From: Octopus vulgaris
Taxonomy: Eukaryota
Assembly: GCA_951406725.2 (NCBI GenBank)
Contig: OX597839.1
Coordinates: 62,001-126,000 of the forward strand
Reading direction: 5' to 3'
DNA: 64,000 nt
In this document: piece after piece, positions 1 to 29,185 of the stretch
Layout: each line of letters opens with the position of its first letter
Numbering within the stretch: the first letter of the stretch is position 1
Position numbers and translations under genes: made by a program
The notes under the pieces: generated by a model
What the model saw: only the letters and a program-made list of their open reading frames with translations
Database searches by the model: none
Told to the model about the DNA's origin: nothing

Positions 1-854
1 TCTATCTATCTCTATCTCTATTTCTCTCCATTTCTCTCTCTCTCTTTTCAGACACTCTCTCTTTCCCAGGCCCTCTCAGCCTCCTTGTCTTTCATATTCC
101 TTTCTATTTTCCTCGTTTTGCCTCTTTTTTCTTTCTGTATCTTTCTCCTTCTCTCCAATTCCCTCTCGCTCTCTTTTCCTCTTTTCTCTTCCAATCTTTC
201 AAATTCGTTTCTATTTCTATTTTCCATTTTACGACCCTTTCGCTCTTAACGTATCTTTCTTCCCCTCCCCCTTTTCTCTGTGTTTCCTTCAATCGTTTTC
301 TCTCTTTTTCTCTCTCTATCACTCTCTCCTTCTCTCCCTCTCTCTCTCTCTCTCATCCGGCCTGGCTCTCTGTCAGTTACGATAACGCGTGCCCCAGCAT
401 GGCCGCAGTCTAATAATTAACACAAGTAAAAGATAAAATTTTTTTTAAAGAACCACCATTTACACCGAAATTATCCGGAAACAACCGAAGTGTTCCTTTC
501 TCCTTATCTCCAATCTTAAGCAGACGATTTCTATTTTCCCTTTTACGACCCTTTTGCTCTTACCGTATCTTTCTTTTACCCTTTTTCTCTGTGTTTCTCT
601 TTTCTCTCCCTTCTCTTTCCTTCCATCCTTCTCTCTTTCTCTCTCTCTCTTTCCCACTCTCCCCTTCTTTCTTTCTCTCTACCACTCTCTCTCTCTACCA
701 CTTTTTCACTCTCTCTCTCCCTCTCTCTTTCTTCCTCTACCTTTTCCCCCCTCTCTCTCTACCTCTCACCCTCTCTCCCTCCCTTTCTCTCTCTCTCTCA
801 TCGGGCCTCGCTCCCTGTCAGTTACTACACACACACACACACATTAACAGTTAT

Positions 855-1102
855 TCAACTCAAAAGGATTTCGTCGGCCCGAGGCTATCGTAGAAGACAC
901 TTGCCCAAGGTGCCACGCTGTAGGATTGAACCAGGAACCATGTGGTTGAGAAGAAAGCTTTTTACCACACAGGCACAGGTGTGACTGTGTGGTAAAAAGC
1001 TTTCTTCTCAACCACATGGTTCCTGGTTCAATCCTACAGCGTGGCACCTTGGGCAAGTGTCTTCTACGATAGCCTCGGGCCGACGAAATCCTTTTGAGTT
1101 GA
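855..1102. repeat. Perfect 118-bp inverted duplication (fold-back palindrome) of a SINE 5' half
   Basis: 855-972 is the exact reverse complement of 985-1102, including variants private to this copy (gacgaaatccttttgagttga). Confidence 0.95.
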
Positions 1103-1130
1103 TTTGGTAGACGGAAACTGAAAGCAGCCC

Positions 1131-1168
<38 letters not shown>

Positions 1169-2224
1169 TGAGTGTACGCGCGCGCGTTCTGTTTTTCCTT
1201 CCCTCCACCCACCCACCCACTTGACATCCGGTGTTGGTGTATTTGCATCCCATGTAACTTAGCGGTTCGGCAACAGGCCTAGATAGAATAAGTACCAGGC
1301 TTAAAAAATAAACATTGGAGTCGATTCATTCAACTAAAATTTCTTTCCAGCCGGTGCCCCAGCATGGCCGCAGTCTAATGATTGACACAAGTAAAAGAGA
1401 AAAAAATAAAATAAAAACCACCATTTACACCGAAATTATCCGGAAACAACCGAAGTGTTCCGTTCTCCTTTTCTCCAATTTTAAGCAGACGACATCATTC
1501 AAACAAGCTGTCGTCTGCTAATGGCTTACAACCATTACAAGTTCTTGTTAAGCTTTATTTGTTGCAGTTATAGACTGACTGTGGCCATACTGGGGCACTA
1601 TCTGAAGGAGTTCAGTCGAACAGATCGACTCGAGTTCCTTCTTTTATTGATACTTATTTTATTTTTTTTATTTTTACCGATCCGTTACCGCTAAATTTAC
1701 GGGGATGTAAGCAAGCTAACATCGGTTGTCAAGCAGTTTTAGAGGACAAACACGAATACAAATACAGAAGAACACACATACACACCAACATACGACACAC
1801 ACACGCATTCGAACACATACACATACACACCCTCACACGCATACACAAATATACACATGCCTACACATACACACAAACACACACATACACATATATACAC
1901 ACACACAGGCATACGCACATGCACGCACATACGCGCACACTCACATACCCACAGACATACACACACATATACACACACGCACACACAGGCACACGCACAC
2001 ACGAACACATACACGCACAAACGCACACACTAACGTGCACACATACACAAACGTATACGCATATACACACACAGACACACGCACACCCACAAGTACATAC
2101 GCACACACGCACAACGACACACACACGCGTTAAGTTAAATGCCTTACACAATTACTTCCCTTGGACCAGTAAACTTCCTTCCGTTTGACAATAGACTAAT
2201 GCCCCGTATTTGCCCACCGACCTC

Positions 2225-2259
<35 letters not shown>

Positions 2260-4344
2260 TCTCTTTTCAGACACTCTCTCCTTCCCAGACTTTTTCCTCC
2301 TCCTCCTTGTCTTTCATATTCCTATCTATTTTCCTCGTTCCACCTTTTTCTTTCCGTATCTTCCATCCCTTTCTCTCTCTCTCTCCCACTCTCTCCTTCT
2401 CTCTCTCTCCCACTCTTTCCTTCTCTCTCTCTCTACTACTCTCTCCTTCTCCCTCTCTCTCACTTTCCCCCTCTCTCTACCACTACCTCTTTCTTTCTCT
2501 CTCTACATCTTCCTCACTCTCTCTACCCCCTCTCTCATTGGGCCTCGCTCCCTGTCAGTTACGATACACACACACACACACACACACACATTAACAGTTA
2601 TTTAACACACAGTCACAGTATGGGGGGGTGTACGCACGCGTGTTCTGTTTTTCCCCTCCCTCCACCCACATACCACTTGACATCCGGTGTTGGTGTATTT
2701 TCATCCCATGTAACTTAGCGGATCGGCAACAGACCTAGATAGAATAAGTACCAAGCTTAAAAAATAAACATTGGAGTCGATTCATTCAAATAAAATTTCT
2801 TTCATGTCGGTGCCCCAGCATGGCCACAGTCTAATGATTGACACAAATAAAAGAGAAAATTTTTAAAAACCCACCATTTACACCGGAATAATCCGGAAAC
2901 AACCGAAGTGTTCCTTTCTCCTTTTCTCCAATTTTAAGCAGACGACATCATTCAAACAAGCTGTCGATTGCTAATGGCTTACAACCATTACAAGATTTTG
3001 TTAAGCTTTATTTGTTGCAGTCATTAGACTGACTGTGGCCATACTGGGGCACTACGTTAAGGGGTTCAGTCGAACAGATCGATTCCAGTTCCTTCTTTTT
3101 TTGATACTTATTTTATTGTTTTGTTTTTACCGATCCGTTTCCGCTAAATTTACGGAGATGTAAACAAGCTAACATCGGTTGTCAAGCAGTTTTAGGGGAC
3201 AAACATGAATACAAATACAGAAAAACATACATATACAGAAAAACACACATATACATACACACACACGCACTCGAAGACATACACATACACACCCTCACAT
3301 GCATACACACATATACACAAGCACACACACAGAAACATACACGCATACACACACAAACATACACACATACACACATACACACACATACACATATACACAC
3401 GCACGCACATACGCGCACACACATACTCACAGACATACGACACACACACATATCCACACACGCACACAGGCACACGCACATACGAACACACACACAAACA
3501 CACACACTAACATGCACACATACACAAACATATACGCATATACACACACAGGCACACGCACAACGACGCGCACATACGCACGCACACACACACACACAGA
3601 ATTACTTCCCTTGGACCAGTAAAATTCCTTCCGTTTGATAATAGATTAATGCACCTTATTTGTCCACCGGCCTCATTTCCATATTTTCTCTATGTCTCGC
3701 TCCCTCTCTCTCTATCTATCTATTTATTTCTCTCTCTCTCTCACTCTCTTTAGACACTCTCTCCTTCCCAGACATTCTCCTCCTCCTCCTCCTCCTCCTC
3801 CTCCTCCTCCTCCTCCTCCTCTCCTCCTCTCCTCCTCCGTGTCTTTCATATTCCTTTCTATTTTCCTCGTTCTGCCTCTTTTTTCTTTCTGTATCTTTCT
3901 CCTTCTCTCTAATTCCCTCTCGCTCTCTTTTCCTCTTTTCTCTTCCAATCTTTCAAATTCATTTCTATTTCTATTTTCCATTTTACGACCCTTTCGCTCT
4001 TACCGTATCTTTCTTCCCCTCCCCTTTTTCTCTGTGTTTCTCTTTTCTCTCCCTTCTCTTTCCTTCAATCCTTTTCTCTCCTTCTCTCTCTCCCTCTACC
4101 CCCACTCTCTCTCTCTCCCCCTTTCTCTCCTTCTCTCTCTCTCTCCCACTCTGTCCACTCTGTCCACTCTTTCCCTACCACTCTCTCCTTCTTTCTCTCC
4201 CTCTCCCCTCTCTTTACCACCCCTTCTATTTCTCTTTCTACCTCTCCCACTCTCTCCCGCTCCCCCTCTCTCTCATCGGCCTCGCTCCCTGTCCGTAACG
4301 ATAGACACACACACACGCATTGACAGTTATTTAACACACAGTCA

Positions 4345-4500
4345 CAGGTGTAGCCGTGTGGTAAGAAGCTTTCTTTTCAACCACATGGTTCCTGGTTCAG
4401 TCCCACGGCGTGGTACCTTGGGCAAGTGTCTCCTACGATAGCCTCGGACCGACCAAAGTTTTGTGAGTGGATTTGGTGAACGGAAACTGAAAGAAGACCA

Positions 4501-4561
<61 letters not shown>

Positions 4562-4805
4562 TGTGTGTGTGTGTACGCGCGCGCGTTCTGTTTTTCCTTC
4601 CCTCCACCTACCCACCCACTACTTGACATCCGGTGTTGGTGTATATGTACCCCATGTAACTTAGCGGTTCGGCAACACACCTACATAAAATAAGTACCAG
4701 GCTTAAAAAATAAACATTGGAGTCGATTCATTCAACTAAAATTTCTTTCAAGTCGGTGCCCCAGCATGGCCGCAGTCTAAAGATTGACACAAATAAAAGA
4801 TAAAA
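4345..4805 (+). mobile_element. tRNA-derived SINE, family A (representative array copy; others at ~975, 6497, 8350, 11740, 14965, 16275, 17905, 19780)
   Basis: A-box-like 'gtgtggtaag' and B-box-like 'ggttcagtccc' head, body 'ccttgggcaagtgtc', internal (GT)n, 3' 'ccagcatggccgcagtc' and A-rich tail. Confidence 0.85.
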
Positions 4806-6174
4806 ATAAAAAATAAAAACCACCATTTACACCGGAATTATCCGGAAACAACCGAAGTGTTCCTTTCTCCTTTTCTCCAATTTTAGCAGACGACATCATT
4901 CAAACAAGCTGTCGTCTGCTAATGGCTTACAACCATTACAAGTTCTTGTTAAGCTTTATTTGTTGCAGTCATTAGACTGACTGTGGCCATACTGGGGCAC
5001 TACGTTAAGGGGTTCAGTCGAACAGATCGACTCCAGTGCCTTCTCTTTTTTGATACTTATTTTATTGTTTTCTTTTTACCGATCCGTTACCGCTAAATTT
5101 ACGGGGATGTAAACAAGCTAACATCGGTTGTCAAGCAGTTTTAGGGGACAAATACGAATACAAATACAGAAAAACACACGTACACATAAACATACGATAC
5201 ACACATATATACATACACACGCACGCACGCACATGCACACACGCACTTGAACACATACACATACACACCCTCACACGCATACACACATATACACATGCCA
5301 ACACATACACACATGCACACACACACACATAGAAACATACACGCATACACACACACATACTCACATACACACATACACACACGTACACACATATACACAC
5401 ACACACACGCACACGCGCGCACATACGCGCACACTCACATACTCACAGACATACACACACATATACACACACGCACACCGACTCAGGCACACGCACAAAC
5501 GAACACACACACACACACACTAACATGCACACATATACATACATATACGCACATACGCACGCACACACAGACAAACACGCGCGCACGCGCACATACGCAC
5601 ACACACACTCGTTAAGTCAAATACCTTACACAATTACTTCCCTTTGACCAGTAAAATTCCTTCCATTTGACAATAGACTAATGCTCCGTATTTGTCCACC
5701 GACCTCATTTCCATATTTCATCTCTCTCTCACTCTCAATCTATCTAACTATCTATCTATCTCTCTCTCTCTTTTCAGACACTCTCTCCTTCCCAGACTTT
5801 TTCCTCCTCCTCCTTGTCTTTCATATTCCTTTCTATTTTCCTCGTTCTACCTTTTTCTTTCTGTATCTACCATCCTTTTCTCTCTCTCTCTCTCTCTCCC
5901 ACTCTCTTTTTCTCTCCCACTCTCTCCTTCTCTCTCTCACTCTCTACCACTCTCTCATTCTCTCTCACTCTCACCCTCCCCCTCTCTCTACCACTACCTC
6001 TCACTTTCTCTCTGTACGTCTTCCTCACTCCCTCTACTTCCTCTCTCATCGGGCCTCGCTCCCTGTCAGCTACGATACACACACACACACACACATTAAG
6101 TCAAATACCTTACCCAATTACTTCCCTTTGACCAGTAAAATTCCTTCCATTTGACAATAGACTCTATCTCTCTC

Positions 6175-6212
<38 letters not shown>

Positions 6213-9200
6213 CAGACACTCTTTCCTTCCCAGACTTTTTCCTCCTCCTCCTCGTCTTTCATATTCCTTTCTATTTTCCCAGTTCTACCTTTTTCTTTCC
6301 GTATCTTCCATCCTTTTCTCTCCCTCTCTCTCTTCCACACTCACCTTCTCTCTCTCTCTCTCTACCACCATCTCCTTCTCTCTCTCTCTTTCTCTCTCTA
6401 CCTCTTCCTCACTCTCTCTACCCCTTCTCTCATTGGATCTAGCTCCCTGTCAGTTACTACACACAAACACATTAACAGTTATTTAACACACAGTCACAGG
6501 TGTGTCTGTGTGGTAAGAAGCTTTCTTCTCAACTACATGGTTCCTGGTTCAGTCCTACGGCGTGACACCTTGGGCAAGTGTCTCCTACGATAGCCTCGGA
6601 CCGACCAAAGTTTTGTGAGTGGATTTGGTAGACGGAAACTGAAAGAAGCTCACTGTGTGTGTGTGTGTACGCGCGCGTGTTCTGTTTTTCTTTCCCTCCA
6701 CTTACACATCGCTTGACATCCGGTGTTATCCGGAAACGACCGAAGTGTTCCGTTCTCCTTTTCTCCAATCTTAAGCAGACGACATCATTCAAACAAGCTG
6801 TCGTCTGCTAATGGCTTACAACCATTACAAGATTTTGTTAAGCTTTAGTTGTTGCAGTCATTAGACTGACTGTGTGTCCATACTGGGGCACTACGTTAAA
6901 GGGGTTCAGTCGAACAGATCGACTCCAGTTCCTTCTATTTTTGATACTTATTTTATTGTTTTGTTTTTACCGATCCGTTACCGCTAAATTTACGGGGATG
7001 TAAACAAGCTAACATCGGTTGTCAAGCAGTTTTAGGGGACAAACACAAATACAAATACAGAAAAACACACATACACACCAACATACTACACACACATATA
7101 GACAGACACACCCACACACGCGCACATGCATACACACATATACACATGCATACACATACTCACATACACACACATACACATATATGCACACACACACAGG
7201 CACACGCACACGCACATAAGCACACACACATACATACATACACACACATACACACAAACATAAGACACACACACATATACATACACACACACACGCACTC
7301 GAACACATGCACATACACACCCTCAAACGTATACACACATATATACATGCCTACACATCCACATAGAAACATACACACACAGACATACTCACATACACAC
7401 ATAAACACACATACACACATATACACACACAGGCACACGCTCGCACATACGCGCACACACACATATCCACACGTACGCGCACACACACATACTCACAGAC
7501 ATACGACACACACACATATCCACACACGCACACGCACATACGAACACACACACAAACAAACACACTAACATGCACACATACACATACATATACGCATATA
7601 ACCACACAGGCACACGCACAATGACGCACACATACGCACACACACACACTCACAGAATTACTTCCCTTTGACCATTAAAATTCCTTCCGTTTGATAATAG
7701 ATTAATGCACCTTATTTGTCCACCGGCCTCATTTCCATATTTTCTCTAGGTCTCACTCCCTCTCTCTCTATCTATCTATCTATTTATTTCTCTCTCTCAC
7801 TCTTTTCAGACACTCTCTCCTTCGCAGGCCTTCTCCTCCTCCTCCTCCTTGTCTTTCATATTCCTTTCTATTTTCCTCGTTCTGCCTCTTTTTTCTTTTT
7901 GTATCTTTCTCCTTCTCTCTAATTCTCTCTCTCTCTCTTTTCCACTTTTCTCTTCCAATCTTTCAAATTCATTTCTATTTCTATTTTCCATTTAACGACG
8001 CTTTCGCTCCTACCGTATCTTTCTTCCCCTCCCCTTTTTCTCTGTGTTTCTCTTTTCTCTCACTTCTCTTTCCTTCATTCCTTTTCTCTCTCTCTCTCTA
8101 CCCCTCTCTCTCTCCCACTCTCTCCTCCTCTCTCTCTCCCACTCTCTCCTCTCTTTCCTTACCACTCTCTCCTTCTCTCTCTCCCTCTCCCCTCTCTTTA
8201 CCAACCCCTCTATTTCTCTCTCTACCTCTCCCACTCTCTCGCCCTCCCCCTCACTCTCAGCGGGCCTCGCTCCCTGTCAGTTACTACACACACACACACG
8301 CACACACACACACACACACACACATTGACAGTTACTTAACACACAGTCACAGGTGTGGCTGTGTGGTAAGAAGCTTTCTTCACAACCACATGGTTCCTGG
8401 TTCAGTCCCACGGCACCACACCTTGGGCAAGTGTCTTCTGCGATAACCTCGGACCGACCAATGTTTTGTGAGTGGATTTGGTAGACTAAAACTGCGAGAA
8501 GCCCATTGTGTGTATGTGTCGGGGGGGGGTACGCGCGAACGTTCTGTTTTTTCCCTCCCTCCCCCCACCCACCGCTTGACATCCGGTGTTGGTGCATTTG
8601 TACCCCATCTAACTTAGCGGCTCGGCAACAGACCTAGATAGAATAACTACCAGGCTTAAAAAATAAACATTGGAGTCGATTCATTCAACTAAAATTTCTT
8701 TCCAGCCGGTGCTCCAGCATGGCCGCAGTCTAATGATTGACACAACTAAAAGATAAAAAATAAAAATAATAAAACCAACCATTTCCGCCGGAACTATCCG
8801 GAAACAACCGAAGTGTTCCTTTCTCCTTTTCTCCAATCTTAAGCTGACGACATCATTCAAACAAGCTGTCGTCTGCTAATGGCTTCCAACCATTACAAGT
8901 TCTTGTAGGGGGACAAACACGAATACAAGTACAGATACGCACACGTACACACAAACATACGACACACAAACATATACAGACACATATACGCACATGCTCA
9001 CACGCACTTGAACACATACACGCCTTCACACGCATACAAACATATACACATGCCTACACATACACACATGCACACACACACATGCACATAGAAACATACA
9101 CACATATACAAACACACATACTCACATACACACATACACGCACATACACACATATACACACACAGAGACACACGCACACGCACGCACACTCACAGACATA

Positions 9201-12200
9201 CACACACATATACACACACGCACACACAGGTACACGCACATACGAACACACACACACACACTCACATGCACACATACACAAACATATACTCATATACTAA
9301 CGGACACACGCTCACCGACACGCACATACGCATGCACACACCCACACACACAAACAGACACACACACACACACATCAAGTCAAATACCTTACACAATTAC
9401 TTCCCTTGGACCAGTAAAGTTCCTTCCATTTGACGATTTCCATATTCTCTCTCTCTCACTATCTTTCTCTATCTATCTGTCCATCTCTCTATCTCTCTCA
9501 ATTTCTCTTTCTCTCTTTTCAGACACTTTCTCCTTCCCAGGCCTTTTCCTCCTCCTCCTCCTGCTCATTGTCTTTCATAATCCTTTCTATTTTCCTCGTT
9601 CTGCCTCTTTTTTCTTTCAGTATCTTTCTCCTTCTCTCTAATTCTCTCTCTCTTTCTTTTCAGACACTCTCTCCTTTCCAGGCCTTCTCTCCTCCTCCTC
9701 CTCCTCCTCCTGCTCCTTGTCTTTCATATTCCTTTCTATTTTCCTCGTTCTGCCTCTTCTTTCTTTCTGTATCTTTCTCCTTCTCTCTAAATCTCTCTCT
9801 CTCTCTCTCTTTAGACACTCTCTCCTTCCCAGGCTTTCTCCTCCTACTCCTCCTCCTGCTCCTTGTCTTTCATATTCCTTTCTATTTTCCTCGTTCTGCC
9901 TCTTCTTTCTTTCTGTATCTTTCTCCTTCTCTCTAAATCTCTCTCTCTCTCTCTCTTTAGACACTCTCTCCTTCCCAGGCTTTCTCCTCCTACTCCTCCT
10001 CCTGCTCCTTGTCTTTCATATTCCTTTCTATTTTCCTCGTTCTGCCTCTTCTTTCTTTCTGTATCTTTCTCCTTCTCTCTAATTCTCCCTCGCTCTCTTT
10101 TCCTCTTTTCTCTTCCAATCTTTCAAATTTATTTCTATTTCTATTTTCCATTTAACGACTCTTCCCCTCTTACCGTATCTTTCTTCCCCTCCCCTTTTTC
10201 TCTGTGTTTCTCTTTTCACTCCTCTTTCCTTCCATCCTTTCTCTCTCTCTATCACACTCTCCTTCTCTTTCTCACTCTCTCTCTCATCCGGCCTGGCTCT
10301 CTGTCAGTTACGATAACGCGTGCCACAGCATGGCCGCAGTCTAATGATTAACACAAGTAAAAGATAAAAAATAAAATAAAAACCCACCATTTCCACCGAA
10401 ATTATCCGGAAACAACCGAAGTGTTCCTTTCTCCTTTTCTCCAATCTTAAGCAGACGACATCATTTAAACAAGCTGTCGTCTGCTAATGGCTTACAACCA
10501 TTACAAGTTCTTGTTAAGCTTTATTTGTTGCAGTCATTAGACTGACTGTGGCCATACTGGGGCACTACGTTAAGGGGTTTCAGTCGAAAAGATCGCCTCC
10601 AGTGCCTTCGGTTTTTGATACTTATTTTATGGTTTTCTTCTTACCGATCCGTTACCGCTGAATTTACGGGGATGTAAACAAGCTAACATCGGTTGTCAAG
10701 CAGTTTTAGGGGACAAACACGAATACAAATACAGAAATGCACACGTACACATAAACATACGACACACACACATATACATACACACACATGCACGTGCACA
10801 CACGCACTTGAACACATACACATACACACCCTCACACGCATACAAACATATACACATGCCTACACATACACACATGCATACACGCACACATAGAAACATA
10901 CACACACAGACATACTCACATACACACATACACACACACACAGGCACACGCACGCACAGACGCTCACGCTCACATACTCACATACTTACACACACATATA
11001 CACACATGCACACACAGGCACACGCAAACACACACACTAACATGCACACATACACAAACATATACGCATATACCCACACGGTCACACGCACAATGACGCG
11101 CACATAGGAACGCACACACACACAGAATTACTTCCCTTGGACCAATAAAATTCCTTCCGTTTGATAATAGTTTAATGCACCTTATTTGTCCACCGACCTC
11201 ACTTCCATATTTTCTCTATGTCTCGCTCCCTCTCTCTCTATCTATCTATTTATTTTTCTCTCTCGCTCTCTTCAGACACCCTCTCCTTCCTAGGCCTTCT
11301 CCTCCTCCTCCTCCTCCTCCTCCTCCTTGTCTTTCATATTCCTTTCTATTTTCCTCTTTCTGCCTCTTTTTCTTTCTGTATCTTTCTCCTTCTCTCTATT
11401 TCTCTCTCGCTCTCTTTTCCTCTTTTCTCTTCCAATCTTTCAAATCCATTTCTATTTCTATTTTCCATTTTACGACCCTTTCGCTCTTACCGTATCTTTC
11501 TTCCCCTCCCCTTTTTCTCTGTGTTTCACTTTACTCTCCCGTCTCTTTCCTTCAATCCTTTTCTCTCCTTCTCTCTCTCCCTCTATCCCCCTCTCTCTCC
11601 CACTCTCTCCTTCTGTCTCTCTCTCCCACTCTTCCCCCTCCCCCTCTCTCTCATCGGGCCTCGTTCCTTGTCCGTTACGATAGACACACACACACACACC
11701 AACACACACACACATTGACAGTTATTTAACACACAGGCACGGGTGTGAATGAGTGGTAAGAAGCTTTCTTCTCAACCACATGGTTCCTGGTTCAATCCTA
11801 CGGCGTGACACCTTGAGCAAGTGTCTCCTACGATAGCCTCGGACCGACCAATGTCTTGTGAGTGGATTTGCTAGACGGAAACTGAAAGAAGCTCAGGGTA
11901 GGTGTGTGGGGGGGGGGAGACGCGCGCGTGTTCTGTTTTTTCCCTCCCTCCACCTACCCACCACTTGACATCCGGTGTTGGTGTATATGTACCCCTGTAA
12001 CTTAGCGGTTCGGCAACAGACCTAGATAGAATAACTACCAGGCTTAAAAAATAAACATTGGAGTCGATTCATTCAACTAAAATTTCTTTCCAGCCGGTGC
12101 CCCAGCATGGCCGAAGTCTAATAATTGACACAAATAAAAGATTAAAAAAAAAAAACCCCACCATTTACACCGGAATTATCCGGAAACAACCGAAGTGTTC

Positions 12201-15200
12201 CTTTCTCCTTTTCTCCAATCTTAAGCAGACGACATCATTCAAACAAGCTGTCGTCTGCTAATGGCTTACAACCATTACAAGTTCTTATAGGGGGACAAAC
12301 ACGAATACAAGTACAGAAACGCACACGTACACACAAACATAATACACACACACGCACATGCACACACGCACATGAACACATACACGCCCTCACACGCATA
12401 CAAACATATACACATGCCTACACATACACACATGCACACACACACATGCACATAGAAACATACACACATATACAAACACACATACTCACATACACACACA
12501 TACACACATATACACACACAGAGGCACACGCACACGCACGCACACTCACATACTCACAGACATACACATATACACACACGCACACACAGGTACACGCACA
12601 TACGAACACACACACACACACACACTCACATGCAAACATACACAAACATATACTCATATACTAACACAGGCACACGCACACCGACACGCACATACGCATG
12701 TACACACACACACACACAAACAGACACACACATCAGGTCAAATACCTTACACAATTACTTCCCTTTGACCAGTAAAATTCCTTCCGTCTGACGATAGACT
12801 AATGCTCCGCATTTCTCCGCGGACCTCATTTCCATATTCTCTCTCTCTCACTATCTTTCTCTATCTATCTATCCATCTCTCTATCTATCTCTATCTCTAT
12901 CTCTCTCAATTTCTCTTTATCTCTTTTCAGACACTTTCTCCTTCCCAGGCCTTTTTCTCCTCCTCCTCCTGCTCCTTGTCTTTCATAATCCTTTCTATTT
13001 TCCTCTTTCTGCCTCTTTTTTTTTCTGTATCTTTCTCCTTCTCTCTAATTCTCTCTCTCTCTCTCTCTCTCTCTCTTTAGACACTCTCTCCTTCCCTGGC
13101 TTTCTCCTCCTCCTCCTCCTCCTCCTGCTCCTTGTCTTTCATATTCCTTTCTATTTTCCTCTTTCTGCCTCTTTTTTTTCTGTATCTTTCTCCTTCTCTC
13201 TAATTCTCTCTCTCTCTCTTTTCATACACGCTCTCCTTCCCAGGCCTTCTCCTCCTCCTCCTCCTCATGCTCCTTGTCTTTCATATTCCTTTCTATTTGC
13301 CTCTTTCTGCCTCTTTTTTTTTCTGTATCTTTCTCCTTCTCTCTAATTCTCTCTCTCTCTCTTTTCAGACACTCTCTCCTTCACAGGTCTTCACCTCCTC
13401 CTCCTCCTCCTCCTCCTCCTCCTCCTTGTCTTTCATATTCCTTTCTATTTTCCTCGTTCTGCCTCTTTTTTCTTTCTGTATCTTTCTCCTTCTCTCTATT
13501 TCTCCCTCGCTCTCTGTTCCTCATTTCTCTTCCAATCTTTCAAATTCATTTCTATTTCTATTTACCATTTTACGACCCTTTCGCTCTTACCGTATCTTTC
13601 TTCCCCTCCCCTTTTTCTCTATATTTCTATTTTCTCTCCCTTCTCTTTCCTTCAATCCTTTTCTCTCTCTTTCTCTCTCTATCACTCTCACTTCCTTTCT
13701 TTCCCTCCTTCCCTCCCTCTCTCTCTCATCCGCCCTGGCTCTCTGTCAGTTACGATAACGCGTGCTCCAGCATGGCCGGAGTCTAATGATTAACACAAGT
13801 AAAAGATAAAATTTTTTTTTTAAAAACCACCATTTACACCGGAATTATCCGGAAACAACCGAAGTGTTCCGTTCTCCTTTTCTCCAATCTTAAGCAGACG
13901 ACATCATTCAAACAAGCTGTCGTCTGCTAATGGCTTACAACCATTACAAGTTCTTGTTAAGCTTTATTTGTTGCAGTCATTAGACTGACTGTGGCCATAC
14001 TGTGGCACTACCTTAAGGGGTTCAGTCAAACAGATCGACTCCAGTTCCTTCTTTTTTTTTATACTTATTTTATTGTTTTCTTTTTACCGATCCGTTACCG
14101 CTAAATTACAGGAATGTAAACAAGCTAACATCGGTTGTCAAGCAGTTTTAGGGGACAAATACGAATACAAATACAGAAACACACACATACACACCAACAT
14201 ACAACACACACACATAGACAGACACACCCACACAAGCGCACATGCATACACACATATACACATGCATACATATACTCACATACACACACATACACATATA
14301 TGCACACACACACAGGCACACGCACATAAGCACACACACATACATACATACACACACATACACACAAACATACGACACACACACATATACATACACACAC
14401 AAACACGCACTCGAACACATACACATACACACCCTCACACGTACACACATATACACATGCCTACACATACACACACGCACACACACACACACATAGAAAC
14501 ATACACACACAGACATACTCACATACACACATACACACACATAAACACATATACACACATGTATCTTTCTCCTTCCCTCTAATTCTCTCTCGCTCTCTTT
14601 TCCTCTTTTCTCTTACAATCTTTCAAATTCGTTTCTATTTCTAGTTTCCATTTTACGACCCTTTTGCTCTTACCGTATCTTTCTTCCCCTCCCCTCTCTC
14701 TCTGTGTTTCTCTTTTCTCTCCCTTCTCTTTCCTTCAATCCTTTTCTCTCCTTCTCTCTCTCTCTCTCTCTCTCTCTCCCACTCTCTCCTCTCTATCCCT
14801 ACCACTCTCTCCTTCCCACTGTCCCTCTCCCTTTCCTCTCTCTTTACCACCCCCTCTATTTTCCTCTCTACCTCTCCCCCCTCTCTCATTGGGCCTCGCT
14901 CCCTGTCCGTTACGATAGACACACACACACACACACATTAACAGTTCTTTAACACACAGGCACTGGTGTGACTGTGTGGTAAGAAGCTTTCTTCTCAAAC
15001 ACATGGTTCCTGGTTCAATCCTACGGCGTGACACCTTGGGCAAGTGTCTTCTACGATAGCCTTGGACCGACCAAAGTTTTGTGAGTGGATCTGGTAAACG
15101 GAAACTGAAAGAAGCCCATTATGTGTGTGTGTGTGTACTCGCGCGTGTTCTGTTTTTCTTTCCCTCCACTTACACATCTCTTGACATCCGGTGTTATCCG

Positions 15201-18200
15201 GAAACGACCGAAGTGTTCCGTTCTCCTTTTCTCCAAACATACAGCACACACATAGACAGACACACCCACACAAGCGCACATGCATACACACATATACACA
15301 TGCATACACATACTCACATACACACATAAACACACATACAGATATATGCACACACACAGACACACGCACACGCACATAAGCACACACACATACATACATA
15401 CACACAAACATACGACACACAGACACACGCACACACGCATACACACCGACATACGACACACACATATCTACACACACACACAAACACACACACTAACATG
15501 CACACATACACAAACATATGCGCATTTACTCACACAGGCACACGCACAACGACGCGCACATACGCACGCACACACACACACACACACACACAGAATTACT
15601 TCCCTTGGACCAGTAAAATTCCTTCCATTTCATAATAGATTAATGCACCTTATTTCCATATTTTCTCTTTGTCTCTCTCCCTCTCTCTCTATCTATCTAT
15701 TTATTTCTCTCTCTCACTCTTTTCAGACACTCTCTCCTTCCCAGACTTTCTCCTCCTCCTCCTCCTCCTTGTCTTTCATATTCCTTTCTATTTTCCTCGT
15801 TTTGCCTCTTTTTTCTTTCTGTATCTTTCTCCTTCTCCCCAATTCTCTCTCGCTCTCTGTTCCTCTTTTCTCTTCCAATCTTTCAAATTCATTTCTATTT
15901 CTATTTACCATTTTACGACCCTTTTGCTCTTACCGTATCTTTCTTCCCCTCCCCTTTTTCTCTGTGTTTCTCTTTTTTCTCCCTTCTCTTTCCTTCAATC
16001 CTTTTCTCTCCTTCTCTCTCTCCCTCTACTCCCTCTCTCTCTCCCACTCTCACCTTCTCTCTCTCTCCCACTCTCTCCTCTCTTTCCTTACCACTCTCTC
16101 CTTCTCTCTGTCCCTGTCCCTCTCCTCTCTCTTTACCACCCCCTCTATTTTTCTCTCTACCTCTCCCACTCTCTCCCCTTCCCCCTCTCTCTCATCGGGC
16201 CTCGCTCCCTGTCCGTTACGATAGACACACACACACACACACACACTTATTAACAGTTATTTAACACACAGTCGCAAGTGTGGCTGTTTGGTAAGAAGCT
16301 TTCTTTTCAACCACATGGTTCCTGGTTCAGTCCCACTGCGTGGCACCTTGGGCAAGTGTCTCTTACGATAGCCTCGGACCGACCAAAGTTTTGTGAGTGG
16401 ATTTGGTAGACGGAAACTCAAAGAAGCCCCTTGTGTGTGTGTGTGTACGCACGCGCGTTCTATTTTTCCCCTCCCTCCACCCACCCACTACTTGACATCC
16501 GGTGTTGGTGTATATGTACCCCATGTAACTTAGCGGTTCGGCAACAGACCTAGATAGAATAAGTACCAGGCTTAAAGAATAAACATTGTAGTCGATTCAT
16601 TCAAATAAAATTTCTTTCAAGTCGGCGCCCCAGCATGGCCGCAGTCTAATAATTGACACAAGTAAAAGATTAAAAAAAAAAAACCCCCACCATTTACACC
16701 GGAATTATCCGGAAACAACCGAAGTGTTCCTTTCTCCTTTTCTCCAATCTTAAGCAGACGACATCATTCAAACAAGCTGTCGTCTGCTAATGGCTTACAA
16801 CCATAACAAATTCTTGTAGGGGGACAAACACGAATACAAATACAGAAACGCACACGTACACACTAACATATGACACACACACATATACAGACACACACAC
16901 GCACATGCACACACGCACTAGAATACATACACATACACGACCTCACACACATACACACATATAACACACAGAGGCACACACACACGCACGCACATACGCG
17001 CACACTAACATACCAACAGACATACACACACATATACACACACGCACACATAGGTACACGCACATACGAACACACACACACACTCACATGCACACATACA
17101 CAAACATATACGCATATACTAACACAGGCACACGCACACCGACACGCACATACACACGCACGCACACACACACACACATCAAGGCAAATACCTTACACAA
17201 TTACTTCCCTTCGACCATTAAAATTCCTTCCATTTCACAATAGACTAATGCACCTTATTTGTTCACCGGCCTCATTTCCATATTTTCTCTCTCTCTCTCT
17301 CTCTATCTTTATCTCTCTCTATCTCTCTCTATTTTCTCTCTCTCTCTATTTTTCTCTCTCTACTTCTCTCTCTCTCTTTTTTCAGACACTCTCTCCTTCC
17401 CAGACTTTTTCCTCCTCCTCCTTGTTTTTCACATTCCTTTCTATTTTCTTTGTTCTGGCTCTTTTTCTTTCTGTATCTTTCTCCTTCTCTCTAATTCTCC
17501 CTCGCTCTCATTTCCTCTTTTCTCTTCCAATCTTTCAAATCCATTTCTATTTCTATTTTCCATTTTACGACCCTTTCGCTCTTACCGTATCTTTCTTCCC
17601 CTCCCCTTTTTCTCTGTGTTTCTCTTTCCTCTCCCTTCTCTTTCCTTCAATCCTTTTCTCTCTTTCTCTCTCTCCCTCTACACCCTCTCTCTCCTTCTCT
17701 CTCTCTCTCCCACTCTGTCCTCTCTTTCCCTACCACTCTCTCCTTCTTTCTCTCCCTCTACCCCTCTCTTTAGCACTCCCTTCTATTTCTCTCTCTACCT
17801 CTCCTACTCTCTCCCCCTCCCCCTCTCTTTCATGGGGCCTCGCTCCCTGTCAGTTACGATACACACACAAACACACACATTAACAGTTATTTAACACACA
17901 GGCACAGGTGTGACTGTGTGGTAAGAAGCTTTCTTCTCAACCACATGGTTCCTGGTTCAGTCCTACGGCGTGACACCTTGGGCAAGTGTCTCCTACGATA
18001 GCCTCGGACCGACCAAAGTTTTGTGAGTGGATTTGGTAGACGGCAAATGAAAGAAGCCCATTGTGTGTTTGTGTGTGTGTGTGTACGCCCGCGCCTTCTG
18101 TTTTCCTTCCCTCCACCCACCCACCCACTGCTTGACATCCGGTGTTGGTGAATTTGCATCCCATGTAACTTAGCGGTTCGCAACAGACTTAGATAAAATA

Positions 18201-19223
18201 AGTACCAGGCTTAAAAAATAAACATTGGAGTCGATTCATTCAACTAAAATTTAATTCCAGCCGGTGCCCCAGCATGGCCGCAGTCTAATGATTGACACAA
18301 ATAAAAGAGAAGAAAAAATAAAAACCCACCATTTCCACCGGAATTATCCGGAAACAACCGAAGTGTTCCTTTCTCCTTTTCTCCAATCTTAAGCAGACGA
18401 CATCATTCAAACAAGCTGTCGTCTGCTAATGGCTTACAACCATTACAAGTTCTTGTTAAGCTTTACTTGTTGCAGTCATTAGACTGACTGTGGCCATACT
18501 GGGGCACTACGTTAAGGGGTTCAGTCGAACAGATCGACTCCAGTGCCTTCTTTTTTTGATACTTATTTTATTGGTTTTTTTTTACCGATCCGTTACTGCT
18601 AAATTAAATGGGATGTAAACAAGCTGACATCGGTTGTCAAGCAGTTTTAGGAGACAAATATGAATACAAATACAGAAAAACACACATACACGCCAACATA
18701 CGACACACACACATATACAGACACACACACGCACATGCACACACGCACTCGAACACGTACACATATACACCCTCACACGCATACACACATATACACGTGC
18801 CTACACATACACACATGAACACACATGCACACACATCGAAACATACACGCATACACACATACACACATACACACACATACACACAAATACACACACAGGC
18901 ACAGGCACACACTCACGCACATACGCGCACTCACACATACTGACAGACATACACACACATATACACACACGCACATACGAACACAAACACACACACTAAC
19001 ATGCACACATACACAAACATATACGCATATACACATACAGGCACACGCAGACCGAGACGCACGTACGCACGCACGCACACATAAACACGTACAGACGTTA
19101 AGTCAAATACCTTACACAATTACTTCCCTTGGACCAGTAAATTCCTTCAATTTGACAATAGACTAATGCATTGTATTTGTCACCGACCTCGTCTATTTCT
19201 CTCTCTCTATCTCTCTCTCTCTA

Positions 19224-19266
<43 letters not shown>

Positions 19267-19391
19267 GTCTATTTCTCTCACTCTCTTCAGACACTCTCTC
19301 CCTCCCAGACTTTCTCCTCCTTGTCTTTCATATTCCTTTCTATTTTCCTCGTTCTGCCTCTTTTTTCTTTCTGTATCTTTCTCCTTCTCTC

Positions 19392-19422
<31 letters not shown>

Positions 19423-22400
19423 ACCACTCTCTCTCTCTCTCTACCACTTTCTCCCTCTCCCATTCTCTCTACCACTCCCTCTCTCTTTCTTTCTCTACCT
19501 CTTCCCCCCTTTTTCTCTACCTCTCATTCCTCTCTCCCTCCCTTTCTCTCTCTCTCTCTCTACCACTCTCTCTCTCTACCACTTTCTCCCTCTCTCTCTC
19601 CCTCTCCCTTTCCCTCTACCACTCTCTCTCTCTTTCTTTCTCTACCTCTTCCCCCCTTTTTCTCTACCTCCCACCCCTCTCTCCCTCCCTTTCTCTCTCT
19701 TTCTCTCATCGGGCCTCGCTCCCTGTCAGTTACGATACACACAAACACACACATTAACAGTTATTTAACACACAGGCACAGATGTGACTGTGTGGTAAGA
19801 AGCTTTCTTTTCAACCACATGGCTCCTGGTTCAATCTTACGGAATGACACCTTGGGCAAGTGTCTCCTACGATAGCCTCGGACCGACCACAGTTTTGTGA
19901 GTGGATTTGGTAGACGAAAACTGAGAGAAGCCCATTATGTGTGTGTGTGTGTACACACGCGGGTTCTGTTTTTTCTTTCCCTCCACCCACCCACTGCTTC
20001 ACATCCGGTGTTGGTGTATTTGCGTCCCATGTAACTTAGCGGTTCGGCAACAGACCTAGATAAAATAAGTACCAGGCTTAAAAAATAAACATTGGAGTCG
20101 ATTCATCCAACTAAAATTTCTTTCCAGCCGGTGCCCCAGCATGGCCGCAATCTAATAATTGACACAAATAAAAGAAAAAAACTTTTTTTAAAAACATCTT
20201 TTAAACCGGAATTATCCGGAAACAACCGAAGTGTTCCTTTCATATTCCTTTCTCCTTTTCTCCAATCTTAAGCAGACGACATCATTCAAACAAGCTGTCG
20301 TCTGCTAATGGCTTACAACCATGACAAGTTCTTGTTAAGCTTTATTTGTTGCAGTCATTAGACTGACTGTGGCCATACTGGGGCACTACGTTAAGGGGTT
20401 CAGTCAAACAGATCGACTCCAGTTCCTTCTATTTTTGATACTTATTTTATGCTTTTCTTTTTACCGATCCGTCACCGCTAAATATACGGGGATGTAAACA
20501 AGCTAACATCTGTTGTCAAGTAGTTTTAGGGGACAAATACGAATACAAATACAGAAAAACACACATACACACAAACATACGACACACACACATATACATA
20601 CACATACACGCATATGCACACATGCACTTGAACACATACACATACACACTCATACACACATATACACAGGCCTACACATATATACACATAGAAACATACA
20701 CGCATGCACACAAACACATACACACATATACACACACAGGCACACGCACACACGCACGCACATACGCGCACACACACATACTCACAGACATGCACACACA
20801 TATACACACACGCACACGGACATACGAACACACACACACAAACACACACACTAACATGCACACATACACAACCATATACGCATATGCACACACAGGCACA
20901 CGCACGCCGACACGCACATACGCACGCACACACATACACACGCACACGTCAAGGCAAATACCTTACACAATTACTTCCCTTTAACCAGTAAAATCCCTTC
21001 CATTTGACAATGGACTAATGCCCCGTATTTGTCCACGGACCTCATTTCCATATTTTCAGTCTCTCTCTATCTCTCTCTGTCTATCTATCTATCTCTATCT
21101 CTATCCATTTCTTTCTCTCTTTCTCTTTTCAGACTCTCTCCTTTCCCAGGCCCTCTCAGCCTCCTACTTGTCTTTCATATTCCTTTCTATTTTCCTCGTT
21201 CTGCCTCTTTTTTCTTACTGTATCTTTCTCCTTCTCTCTAATTCTCTCTCTCTCTCTCTTTTCAGACACTCTCTCCTTCAAGGCTTTCTCCTCCTCCTCC
21301 TCCTCCTATAGTCTTTCATATTCCTTTCTATTTTCCTCGTCCTGCCTCTTTCTTCTTTCTGTATCTTTTTCCTTCTCTATTATTCCCTCTCGCTCTCTTT
21401 TCCTCTTTTCTCTTCCAATCTTTCAAATTCATTTCTATTTCTATTTTCCATTTTACGACCCTTTCGATCTTACCGTATCATTCTTCCCCTCTTCTTTTTC
21501 TCTGTGTTTCTCTTTTCTCTCCTCTTTCCTTCCATCCTTTTCTCTCTCTTTCTCTCTCTCTATCATTCTCTCCTTCTCTCTCTCCATCCCTCCCTCCCTC
21601 CCTCTCTCTCTCATCCGAGCTGGCTCTCTCTCAGTTACGATAACGCGTGCTCCAGCATGGCCGCAGTCTAATGATTAACACAAGTAAAAGATAAAATTTT
21701 TTTTTAAAAAACCACCATTTCCACCGGAATTATCCGGAAACAACCGAAGTGTTCCTTTCTCCTTTTCTCCAATTTTAAGCAGACGACATCATTCAAACAA
21801 GCTGTCGTCTGCTAATGGCTTAAAACCATTACAAGTTCTTGTTAAGCTTTATTTGTTGCAGTCATTAGACTGACTGTGGCCATACTGGGGCACTACCTTA
21901 AGGGGTTTCAGTCAAACAGATCGACTCAGTTCCTTCTGTTTTTTATACTTATTTTATTGTTTTCTTTTTACCGATCCGTTACCGCTGAATTTACGGGGAT
22001 GTAAACAAGCTAACATCGGTTGTCAAGCAGTTTTAGGGGACAAATATGAATACAAATACAGAAACGCACACTTACACACAAACATACGACACACACACAT
22101 ATACAGACACACACACGCACATGCACACATACACGCCCTCACACGCATACAAACATATACACATGCCTACACATACACACATGCACACACACACATGCAC
22201 ATAGAAACATACAGACATACACAAACACACATACTCACATACACACATACACACACATACACACATATATACACACAGAGGCGCACATTCGCGCACACTC
22301 ACATACTCACAGACATACACATATACACACACGCACACACAGGTACACGCACATACGAACACACACACACTCACATGCACACATATACTCATATACTAAC

Positions 22401-23209
22401 ACAGGCACACGCACACCGACACGCACATATGCACGCACACACACACACACACACACACACAATTACTTCCCTTGGACCAGTAAAATTCTTTCCACTTGAT
22501 AATAGATTCATGCCCTGTATCTGTCCACCGACCTCATTTCCATATTTTCTCTCTTTCTCTCTATCTATCTATTTCTCTTTCTCACTCTCTTCAGACACTT
22601 TCTCTTCCTTCTCCTCCTTTTCCTCCTTGTCTTTCATATTCCTTTCTATTTTCCTCGTTTTGCCTCTTTTTTCTTTCTGTATCTTTCTCCTTCTCTCTAA
22701 TTCTCTATCTCTCTCTTTTTAGACACTCTCTCCTTCAAGGCTTTCTCCTCCTACTCCTCATCCTGCTCCTTGTCTTTCATATTCCTTTCTATTTTCCACG
22801 TTCTGCCTCTTTTTTCTTTCTGTATCTTTCTCCTTCTCTCTAATTCCCTCTCGCTCTCTTTTCCTCTTTTCTCTTCCAATCTTTCAAATTCGTTTCTATT
22901 TCTATTTTCCATTTTACGACCCTTTTGCTCTCACCGTATCTTTCTTCCACCCCCCTTTTTCTCTGTGTTTCTCTTTTCTCTCCATTCTCTTTCCTTCAAT
23001 CCTTTTTTCTCTCTTTCTCTCTCTATCACTCTCTTCTTCTCTCTCGCTCTCTCTCCCTCTCTCTCTCATCCGCCCTGACTCTCCTCCTCCTCCTTCTCTT
23101 TCATATTCCCTTCTCCTTTTCTCCAATTTTAAGCAGCGACATCATTCAAACAAGCTGTCGTCTGCTAATGGCTTACAACCATTACAAGTTCTTGTTAAGC
23201 CTTATTTGT

Positions 23210-23830
23210 TGCAGTCTTAGACTGACTGTGGCCATACTGGGGCACTACCTTAGGGGTTCAGTCAAACAGATCGACTCCAGTTCCTTCTGTTTTTTATACT
23301 TATTTTATTGTTTTCTTTTTACCGATCCGTTACCGCTAAATTACATACAGCACACACATATACAGACACACACGCACACACATATACACATAGACACATA
23401 GACAGACACACACACGCACATACACACACGCACTTGAACACACATACATATACAAACCTCACACGCATACACACATATACACATGCATACACACACACAC
23501 ATACACACACATACACATATATATACACACACATACGCACACGCACATGCACACGCACATTAGCACGCGCGCGCACACACACACATACATACATACACAC
23601 ACATACATACATATACACACACACACGCATGAACACGTGCGCGCGCACACACACACACTCACACATACACACGACGGGCTCGTTCAGTATCCGTCTATCA
23701 AATCCACTCACAAGCCTTTGATCGGCCTAGGGCTACAGTTGAAGACAGTTGCCCAAAGTACCGCGTAGCAGGACTGAAACTGTAACCTTACAGTTGTGAG
23801 CCCATAGCAACCACCATATACCTGTCGGTG
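23210..23830 (-). mobile_element. SINE family A, inverted copy retaining its 5' head (right edge of the array)
   Basis: 3' part at 23210-23340, then a CA tract, then the reverse-complement head 'ccgtctatcaaatccactcacaag...gttgcccaaagtaccgcgtagcaggactgaa' at 23672-23830. Confidence 0.7.
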
Positions 23831-24669: not shown

Positions 24670-25703
<1,034 letters not shown>

Positions 25704-26066: not shown

Positions 26067-26488
26067 ACACTGTATCTAGTATCTCTTATTCCTGCTTTCA
26101 ATCAAAGCTTACTAATTTGTATAGCGACTACCATCCCCCACTTTTTTTAAATAATTGCTACACTTGATCATACACATTGTTTATTTCAACAGGATAATTT
26201 TTAAGGTCAGGAGCCAGATATAGCCTCATTGAAATGAGGTTACTTGCTGGCCCCCCTCTCTCTCTCTCTCATTATCATAGTATAGATTACTGTCTCTAGC
26301 AGTAATACAAACTCAATTTTACAAAACCATGATTATTTTTAATCTATGCTCAATCTCCCGTTGGTGGTATACACATACTGAAAATTTTTTTTTGGAGGAT
26401 AATTTGGTGGAAAAAAATGTGTCCAGTAGCTGTCTCCAGTATTTTGTTGAGTGCTGTGTTTTTCACAGCGAGTTATTAAAGCTCTAAG

Positions 26489-29040: not shown

Positions 29041-29079
29041 ACTCACGCGCACGCACACACATACACACACATTTATTCC

Positions 29080-29185
29080 ACAAATACCATTGAAACCGGA
29101 ATTGTCTAGAAACCATTCTTCTTTCAGTATTCTTCTTTCAGACGATAACATTCAAACAAGCTATCGTCTGCTAATAGCTTACAGG
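29080..29185 (+). repeat. Solo diverged copy of the array core
   Basis: 'accattgaaaccggaattgtctagaaac...cagacgataacattcaaacaagctatcgtctgctaatagcttaca' aligns to the array core and is preceded by CT and CA tracts, with no flanking SINEs. Confidence 0.85.

What the first reader, a model, noticed from the sequence alone, without database searches (positions are those of the whole stretch)
1..23340. 23-kb array of SINE-armed hairpin cassettes upstream of an immune-type receptor gene
Seen: in full units a + strand SINE 3' half and an inverted SINE 3' half converge on a conserved ~150-bp core (e.g. 1220-1390 vs 1565-1735). Each full unit could therefore fold as a long imperfect hairpin; the units are separated by CA and CT spacers. 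Inference: a read-through transcript would give serial dsRNA against a highly abundant SINE. That makes it a candidate endo-siRNA/piRNA source or an ADAR hyper-editing substrate (extensive A-to-I editing is established in coleoids). It could also be a neutral macrosatellite.
Basis: partly seen in the sequence, partly recalled or inferred. Interest (0 to 1): 0.7.

Follow-up and report, generated by a model that had tools for sequence, protein, structure and literature searches.

The report
Helitron-derived tandem array with nested SINEs
A 25-kb stretch of octopus DNA is about 16 head-to-tail copies of the non-coding front end of a rolling-circle transposon (a Helitron) that carries two oppositely facing SINE repeats; it likely grew by unequal crossing-over and is likely ordinary repeat DNA, and its long RNA hairpin is predicted but not shown to be made or kept by selection.

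Summary
The array is real: about 16 units, 25.5 kb, starting 1.8 kb left of the window. The 'core' is not a novel spacer. It is the 5' non-coding region of an old HLE1 Helitron whose dispersed copies continue into OTU, Rep and Pif1 remnants and end in hairpin+CTAG. Related cores form separate arrays on five other contigs. Two full-length SINEs inserted around the core in opposite directions; the 'CA spacer' is the inverted SINE's own microsatellite. The SINE hairpin folds in silico (z about -12) but only 5 units keep both arms, the arms are 63-68% identical (bottom tenth of random SINE pairs), paired sites vary as much as unpaired, and better opposed pairs occur elsewhere. Two guessed-RNA contigs match single genomic units with no editing, which settles nothing. 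One thing is unexplained: the core varies 2-3 times less than other blocks. The downstream gene starts 12 kb away and is only weakly TNFR-like. Verdict: new example of a known kind; low interest.

The parts
1..23672 (+). Tandem array of about 16 complex units (continues 1.8 kb left of the window; 25.5 kb in all)
17181..19096 (+). One complete unit: block H, CT-rich blocks I/J, block A, + SINE, core, inverted SINE 3' half, CA tract
17181..17273 (+). Block H, unit start; 16 copies, found only in this array; origin not shown (weak likeness to Helitron 5' region)
17381..17625 (+). CT-rich blocks I and J; match the CT-rich 5' region upstream of the core in some dispersed Helitron-family copies
   Evidence: I: 3 of 10 targets, J: 3 of 10 targets at 2 or fewer of 200 local shuffles
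17900..18320 (+). Full-length SINE (5' half, TG tract, 3' half) inserted just upstream of the core
   Evidence: very high copy depth
18335..18456 (+). Core: Helitron 5' non-coding segment (25-bp box, pyrimidine tract, 11-bp hairpin); least variable block
18457..18660 (-). Inverted SINE 3' half (second SINE insertion)
18680..19090 (-). CA tract = expanded internal microsatellite of the inverted SINE; unit junction
1207..1750 (.). Unit with both arms (others: 2662-3203, 4606-5154, 18115-18660, 19983-20539); predicted imperfect hairpin of 125-150 inter-arm pairs
23676..23787 (-). 5' half of the inverted SINE, kept only after the last unit; right edge of the array
855..1102 (.). Perfect palindrome of SINE 5' half, 118-bp arms with 0 mismatches
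29075..29330 (+). Solitary, SINE-free copy of the same Helitron 5' segment; shares the hairpin loop with the array core
35879..52019 (+). Neighbouring gene (signal peptide exon to stalk exon; later exons not mapped): Cys-rich type I membrane protein, weakly TNFR-like; no link to the array shown

Best explanation
The array is a complex tandem repeat built from the 5' non-coding region of an old Helitron into which two SINEs inserted in opposite directions; it was likely amplified by unequal crossing-over at its CA microsatellites and is likely without a function of its own, so the predicted SINE hairpin would be a by-product. Shown: the core's Helitron identity, the two nested SINEs, the unit structure, and the repeated loss of arms. 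Inferred: the order (Helitron piece, then SINE insertions, then duplication, since both insertions sit at the same place in all units that have them); exchange between a CA tract native to the Helitron 5' region and the inverted SINE's CA tract as the founding duplication; later multi-unit duplications and microhomology deletions; and more efficient homogenisation, or lower mutation far from the microsatellites, as the cause of the low variation in the unit's middle.
For: Core family members continue, in the same orientation, into an OTU frame about 370 bp downstream in 12 of 19 loci examined and into Pif1 remnants in 3 more. L035 is a 5.3-kb decayed element with OTU (E 1.5e-10), Helitron_like_N (E 1e-22), Pif1 similarity (tblastn E 1.6e-42 to a PIF1-bearing frame), a 5' TC after A and hairpin+CTAG before T. 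The same core forms tandem arrays with unrelated unit content on C12, C23, C25, C5 and C13, so tandemisation does not need SINE arms. In 26 dispersed copies found without the box, box and stems decay like flanks (7.9% and 8.2% against 5.7-11.1% non-majority letters; 8 of 21 covered boxes intact). Arms: 5 of 16 units complete, 63-68% identical where only 10% of 488 random SINE pairs are that unlike, no conserved pairing. 5 opposed SINE pairs within 1 kb among 40 copies in 353 kb of non-array DNA, two at 92-95% identity. Low variation runs on into the inverted SINE tail (18,454-18,513) and so is not bounded by the core. No distance-divergence trend among units (Spearman -0.11 to 0.16) and multi-unit matches up to 4 kb fit unequal exchange. 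Helitron-derived arrays are described (PMC12628747, PMC12001565, passages).
Against: The core is less variable than flanks in matched units (10 of 109 columns against 33 of 172, p 0.027, and 40 of 183, p 0.006; against B, J, H p 0.0013 or lower), shows no CpG-type change at 8 CpG columns where the other blocks show 12 in 60, and is kept in 14 near-complete copies while arms are deleted. The C25 array shows the same trend (3 of 90 against 22 of 210, p 0.042), the other three do not (pooled p 0.10). Contigs from two guessed-RNA runs of two studies cover core and inverted arm. The array core itself is only 72-79% identical to other family members, its downstream Helitron sequence is gone, and block H has no convincing match outside the array. 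The crossing-over mechanism was not tested.
Confidence: 0.72

Rival explanations
1. Same origin, but the core (by position likely the Helitron's promoter or 5' cis-element) is kept by selection as a multimerised promoter or enhancer, possibly for the Cys-rich receptor gene 12 kb downstream on the same strand.
For: Core 2-3 times less variable, no CpG decay, retained when arms are lost; lies between the 5' end and the OTU frame in full elements; the box is exact in 43 places with 0 for the reversed control; guessed-RNA contigs match the two gene-proximal units.
Against: The exact-match count selects for intact copies; unbiased copies decay. The trough extends into SINE sequence. Not replicated across four other arrays (p 0.10). 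Six paralogous genes at C26:152-498 kb have no core hit nearby. Promoter activity untested.
Confidence: 0.14
2. One reading: read-through transcription gives serial SINE hairpins that are hyper-edited by ADAR or diced into anti-SINE small RNAs, and this is why the array exists.
For: Strong predicted fold (z about -12); part of the + arm (18,258-18,311) is shared with very many genomic SINE copies; a perfect 118-bp palindrome sits at 855-1102; core and inverted arm are covered in guessed-RNA contigs.
Against: Both arms whole in 5 of 16 units; longest + strand helix 13-14 bp; arms 71% and 67% median identity to 32 dispersed copies, so few perfect targets; no conserved pairing; the listed differences in the two contigs (13 of 13 and 9 of 9) are genomic variants of single units, including the only A-to-G; better substrates are common. 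Incidental editing of any transcript remains possible but would not be special.
Confidence: 0.07
3. The units are rolling-circle concatemers made by the Helitron transposase from a SINE-bearing, truncated template and integrated in one step.
For: Six separate arrays share the Helitron 5' segment; this route, favouring 5' parts, is described (PMC12628747 passages).
Against: No Helitron 5' terminus motif in the array or its flanks and no Rep/helicase remnant in the window; junctions fall in microsatellites; the right edge runs on into the intact rest of the inverted SINE, as expected for duplication in place; units differ by 2-16% with nested deletions.
Confidence: 0.05
4. The core hairpin is a microRNA or other small RNA gene, and the array is a SINE-flanked cluster like primate C19MC.
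For: 11-bp perfect stem, z -4.8, nearly invariant among units.
Against: Stem far too short for a pre-miRNA (own knowledge); no Rfam match at gathering level; no covariation beyond shuffles in 14 family members (81 of 500); hairpin lost in several family members.
Confidence: 0.02

Closest known systems
Helitron-derived tandem arrays and satellites (Xenopus Heli1Xen1/Heli2Xen; oyster Cg170/HindIII; plant centromeric Helitron arrays; passages of PMC12001565 and PMC12628747)
   Same: Head-to-tail units of 0.7-2 kb made from part of a Helitron, biased to its 5' region; several arrays from one family in one genome.
   Different: Here the unit is an internal 5' non-coding piece without termini, carries two nested SINEs, has 16 units, and joins at microsatellites.
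HLE1 Helitrons with an OTU domain upstream of RepHel (PMC11417382, passages)
   Same: The parent family has TC start, hairpin+CTAG end, A|T site, OTU then Rep then Pif1.
   Different: All copies seen are decayed; the array holds no coding part.
Inverted SINE pairs as ADAR substrates (inverted Alus; recalled)
   Same: Two opposed copies of an abundant SINE about 150 bp apart, predicted to pair.
   Different: Only 63-68% identical, multiplied by tandem duplication, transcription and editing not shown.
Hairpin endo-siRNA loci (Drosophila hpRNAs) and C19MC miRNA cluster (both recalled, not tested against data)
   Same: Repeated cassettes with predicted hairpins; SINE-flanked units.
   Different: No long clean duplex, no compensatory changes, arms dispensable, core hairpin only 11 bp.

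Membership tests
HLE1 Helitron (parent family of the core) | 5' TC after host A | tested here: met
   12 of 30 loci align to the 5' end; A|TC start visible in L088, L097, L103, L107, L110
HLE1 Helitron (parent family of the core) | 3' short hairpin plus CTRR before host T | tested here: met
   CTAG then T after a GC-rich inverted motif in L035 and L129; the third copy printed (L036) is cut by the locus end
HLE1 Helitron (parent family of the core) | Rep domain and Pif1 helicase | tested here: met
   Helitron_like_N E 1e-22; tblastn to a PIF1/Pif1_2B frame in L035, L129, L131; the short C12 remnants alone gave no Pfam hit
Helitron element or rolling-circle concatemer (the array itself) | Termini or RepHel sequence within the units | tested here: not met
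   No 5' terminus motif, no RepHel remnant in the window; the 3' end was not searched for separately inside the array
Complex tandem repeat (macrosatellite) | Head-to-tail units of kilobase size at one locus | tested here: met
   16 block-H copies, all at C26:60-85 kb
Complex tandem repeat (macrosatellite) | Copy number varies between individuals | not testable with these tools
   Only short contigs available
Inverted-SINE ADAR substrate | Opposed nearby SINE copies predicted to pair | tested here: met
   5 units, 125-150 inter-arm pairs
Inverted-SINE ADAR substrate | Both arms in one transcript, with A-to-G clusters | tested here: inconclusive
   Guessed-RNA contigs only, no strand, rare variants dropped; listed differences are genomic
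Hairpin endo-siRNA locus | Long well-paired duplex kept by compensatory change | tested here: not met
   Longest helix 13-14 bp (+), 16-22 bp (-); 1 compensatory against 51 broken cells; paired sites not less variable
Hairpin endo-siRNA locus | Phased 21-22-nt reads | not testable with these tools
   No small-RNA run was offered
microRNA cluster | Pre-miRNA-length stem, family match, covariation | tested here: not met
   11-bp stem, no Rfam gathering hit, covariation within shuffles; MirGeneDB sequences not seen
TNF-receptor superfamily (neighbouring gene) | TNFR Cys-rich domain above Pfam cut-off; death domain or TRAF site | tested here: inconclusive
   Only TNFR_ELAPOR1_6th at E 0.02-0.07, below cut-off, in 4 of 5 proteins; no death domain hit
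tRNA-derived octopus SINEs OK/OR1/OR2 | Match to the published family sequence, tRNA-like head | not tested
   Names OK and OR1 recalled; OR2 seen in PMC4758252; ARAGORN found no tRNA. SINE nature rests on dispersed, very abundant copies with shared ends

The most novel reading that the evidence does not exclude
A Helitron's 5' cis-element, probably its promoter, has been multimerised 14-fold in front of an octopus-specific cluster of TNFR-like receptor genes and is now preserved by selection as an enhancer or promoter, with the same element seeding tandem arrays at five other loci.
Probability: 0.12. Interest if true: 0.55.

Novelty: new member of a known kind. Interest (0 to 1): 0.2.

Why it matters
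Mostly it removes a false lead: the hairpin cassettes are what results when two abundant SINEs land in one transposon fragment that is then tandemly duplicated. It adds an OTU-bearing HLE1 Helitron family in octopus whose 5' region has formed at least six separate kilobase-unit arrays, a usable case for studying how satellites arise from transposons. If the low variation of the core proved to be selection, it would be a case of a multimerised transposon promoter co-opted beside a young receptor gene cluster.

Tried and rejected
Rfam: 37 matches at E up to 1 in 1-24,000, all below gathering score and on microsatellites or the palindrome; none in six family loci. U7-like, SL-RNA or miRNA reading of the core: dropped once the core was tied to Helitron coding remnants and seen to lose its hairpin in family members. 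Pfam on two short C12 helicase remnants: no relevant hit. The 25-bp box as genome-wide constrained motif: an effect of searching for exact matches. Sequencing runs: no RNA holder listed on record; four runs of guessed or unknown kind were laid as contigs, no silent control stretch could be laid because both calls were used, so nothing is concluded on expression, and the lack of cover over the + arm is not used. Cross-species contigs (organisms B, C, D; E in part) hold the unit but differ about as little as units do, too close to separate selection from homogenisation; organism B shows a loop change and, in one contig, a 3-base stem deletion. Search of PMC9699675 supplements for six 9-letter stem words: 0 hits in only 24,410 characters, file 2 not searched, annotation file not unpacked, so uninformative. 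Block H and A homology to Helitron 5' regions: not significant in most of 10 targets. Alleles-per-cell test (p 1e-4 to 1e-6) is biased by unequal copy numbers and was replaced by matched tests. Link between core and gene paralogues: none. Earlier findings: none in three look-ups. C26:40,001-42,000 was not fetched.
Full report
Setting. The window is G000:C26:62,001-126,000 of a 2.80-Gb genome in 227 contigs. A protein matching an exon in the window at 100% is labelled Octopus vulgaris and lies on a contig of the same length as C26. The array lies about 60 kb from the contig start; no telomere repeat array was seen in the 50 kb fetched to its left (40,001-42,000 not fetched).

The array. Self-BLAST shows head-to-tail matches of up to 4 kb across 1-23,670. 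Eight non-microsatellite blocks recur in one order: H, I, J, A, SINE 5' half, SINE 3' half, core, inverted SINE 3' half. The first unit starts 1.8 kb left of the window. Block H has 16 matches in the genome, all here; the core has 16 here, 14 of them 110 bp or longer. Units differ by 6-10% in most blocks, so this is not an assembly duplication, and contigs of other runs and organisms hold unit junctions. With the calibration of PMC13282606 (distance 0.09 = 25 million years; part 1 of 3 and passages read) that divergence would mean roughly 8-14 million years; this is inference.

The SINEs. Alignment with three dispersed copies shows that the + element is a whole SINE with an internal TG tract, and that the inverted one is too: after the last unit its CA tract runs on into its 5' half at 23,676-23,787. 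So the CA 'spacer' is part of the SINE. The family is extremely abundant (summed contig depth of millions against hundreds on the core; one 3' half per 8.8 kb in 353 kb). Which named octopus SINE it is was not tested.

The hairpin. Units with both arms fold at z -12.0 and -12.6, with 125-150 inter-arm pairs, arms 63-68% identical, and longest helices of 13-14 bp on + and 16-22 bp on -. Only 5 of 16 units have both arms whole. Taking the fold of one unit and the four other complete units, 458 cells are unchanged, 20 kept by a one-sided change, 1 compensatory and 51 broken (some of these reflect private changes and a 1-base shift in the reference unit); across all copies 61 of 261 paired and 17 of 104 unpaired arm positions vary (p 0.16). 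The fold is real in silico but ordinary, and poorer than most.

The core. A genome search found 18 further matches at 76-93% identity, several in tandem on C12, C23 and C13; a second search added arrays on C25 and C5. The C12, C23, C20 and second C26 copies carry Pif1 remnants in the same orientation (the short pieces alone gave no Pfam hit, but match frames with PIF1 and Pif1_2B domains). L035 on C17 is a whole decayed element of 5.3 kb: TC start after A, about 420 bp to the 25-bp box, about 370 bp more to an OTU frame (E 1.5e-10), Helitron_like_N (E 1e-22), Pif1, and a hairpin with CTAG before T. L098/L129 and L089/L131 also run from the core region into Rep and helicase. Of 19 box-bearing loci examined, 12 have OTU downstream, 3 have Pif1 remnants, 4 neither. 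These are the features given for HLE1 Helitrons, including OTU upstream of RepHel, in PMC11417382 (passages). Blocks I and J match the CT-rich region upstream of the core in 3 of 10 related copies each at 2 or fewer of 200 local shuffles; H and A mostly do not. A short motif that opens block H follows a CA- or TA-rich tract upstream of the core in 5 of 10 related copies, weak support for a native CA tract there. A SINE-free copy with the same hairpin loop lies at 29,075-29,330. The array itself has no Helitron 5' terminus motif and no coding remnant.

How it likely arose. Shown: both SINEs sit at fixed places around a Helitron 5' segment in every unit that has them. Inferred: a Helitron fragment took two SINE insertions; exchange between two CA tracts about 1.7 kb apart duplicated the stretch; unequal exchange then added, deleted and shuffled units, with short-homology deletions removing one arm or the other. 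Multi-unit matches, no distance trend and the intact SINE remainder at the right edge fit this. Rolling-circle concatemer formation, described for Helitrons (PMC12628747 and PMC12001565, passages), may explain other arrays of the family but fits less well here.

What is left over. The core varies less than its flanks: 10 of 109 columns against 33 of 172 (same 8 units, p 0.027) and 40 of 183 (same 11 units, p 0.006), and against B, J and H at matched copy number p 0.0013 or lower; these p values are nominal, the copies are related, and the block was picked after seeing the data. None of 8 CpG columns shows a CpG-type change, against 12 of 60 in other blocks. Against a functional reading: in 26 dispersed copies found with a query that omits the box (30 loci, 4 near-duplicates dropped) box and stems decay like flanks; the four other arrays tested give p 0.38, 0.54, 0.042 and 1.0, pooled 0.10; the low-variation trough extends about 55 bp into the inverted SINE tail and sits where the unit is farthest from microsatellites; the hairpin shows no covariation beyond shuffles. 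Selection cannot be excluded.

Expression. No holder was on record as RNA. Of four runs laid, two guessed to be RNA, from two studies, have contigs over core and inverted arm (depth 43.8 and 2.8). All 13 listed differences of one are variants of the genomic unit at 21.7-22.0 kb and all 9 of the other are variants of the unit at 23.1-23.3 kb, including the single A-to-G. Contigs show neither strand nor rare variants and may be DNA, so this neither shows transcription nor excludes editing.

The neighbour. The gene starts at 35,879 and encodes a signal peptide, Cys-rich ectodomain, Thr/Pro stalk and membrane anchor by its close relatives. Pfam gives only below-threshold TNFR-like hits. The exon has 9 matches in the genome, 7 at C26:103-498 kb; no core hit lies near the others. 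No link to the array is shown.

Literature. Searches returned no description of this array or family; the library lacks most subscription papers and repeat databases were not available, so the family may be in a repeat library already. PMC8268682 and PMC7492417 were seen as listings only; PMC9699675 as passages and an incomplete supplement search, its miRNA sequences being held elsewhere; PMC4758252 as passages. Statements on inverted Alus, hpRNAs, C19MC and pre-miRNA length are recalled.

Verdict. Observation partly confirmed; origin identified; hairpin function unsupported. A new example of a Helitron-derived complex tandem repeat, interest 0.2, with a 0.12 chance that the core is a co-opted regulatory element.

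Noticed in passing
window 855-1102: Perfect palindrome with 118-bp arms (0 mismatches, z -35) made from a SINE 5' half and centred on a small natural inverted repeat present in every unit; a recent template-switch inversion or an assembly fault. It is the only clean long duplex in the array, and its inverted arm is 84-88% complementary to the other + SINE 5' halves.
   Followed up: partly
G000 C12:28.68-28.70 Mb, C23:8.18-8.19 Mb, C25:15.60-15.61 Mb, C5:113.94 Mb, C13:65.72 Mb; short tandems at C5:46.19, 46.31, 46.38 Mb: Separate tandem arrays, units 0.2-1.9 kb, all containing the same Helitron 5' box; C12 and C23 units also carry Pif1 remnants.
   Followed up: partly
L035 (C17:23.872-23.877 Mb, minus): Whole decayed OTU-Rep-Pif1 HLE1 Helitron of 5.3 kb; 46 matches to its 5' region in the genome.
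   Followed up: yes
L039, L040, L041, L042: A younger Helitron family with open helicase frames of 380-752 aa and many copies; no core within the 10 kb fetched.
   Followed up: partly
window 35,879-52,019 and C26:143-498 kb: Cluster of at least 7 octopus-specific Cys-rich type I membrane protein genes; the public model P0001 appears to fuse exons of more than one paralogue.
   Followed up: partly
window 26,480-27,270: Remnant of a Tc5/pogo-type transposase (CENP-B_N, HTH_Tnp_Tc5).
   Followed up: no
window 44,640-49,790: 5-kb G-rich trinucleotide-based satellite inside an intron of the Cys-rich gene.
   Followed up: no
window 37,316-37,873: Short element ending in a GC-rich motif and CTAG before T, like a non-autonomous Helitron; read by eye only.
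   Followed up: no
L012:2817-3537 (C26:44.8-45.5 kb) and L038:7613-8217: Opposed SINE 3' halves at 92% and 95% identity within 400 bp, better predicted duplexes than the array's.
   Followed up: no
window 24,676-25,352 and 54,118-54,792: Two copies of another dispersed repeat, 95% identical.
   Followed up: no
L050 (C23:8.168-8.178 Mb): A simple-repeat tract of more than 6 kb beside the C23 array.
   Followed up: no
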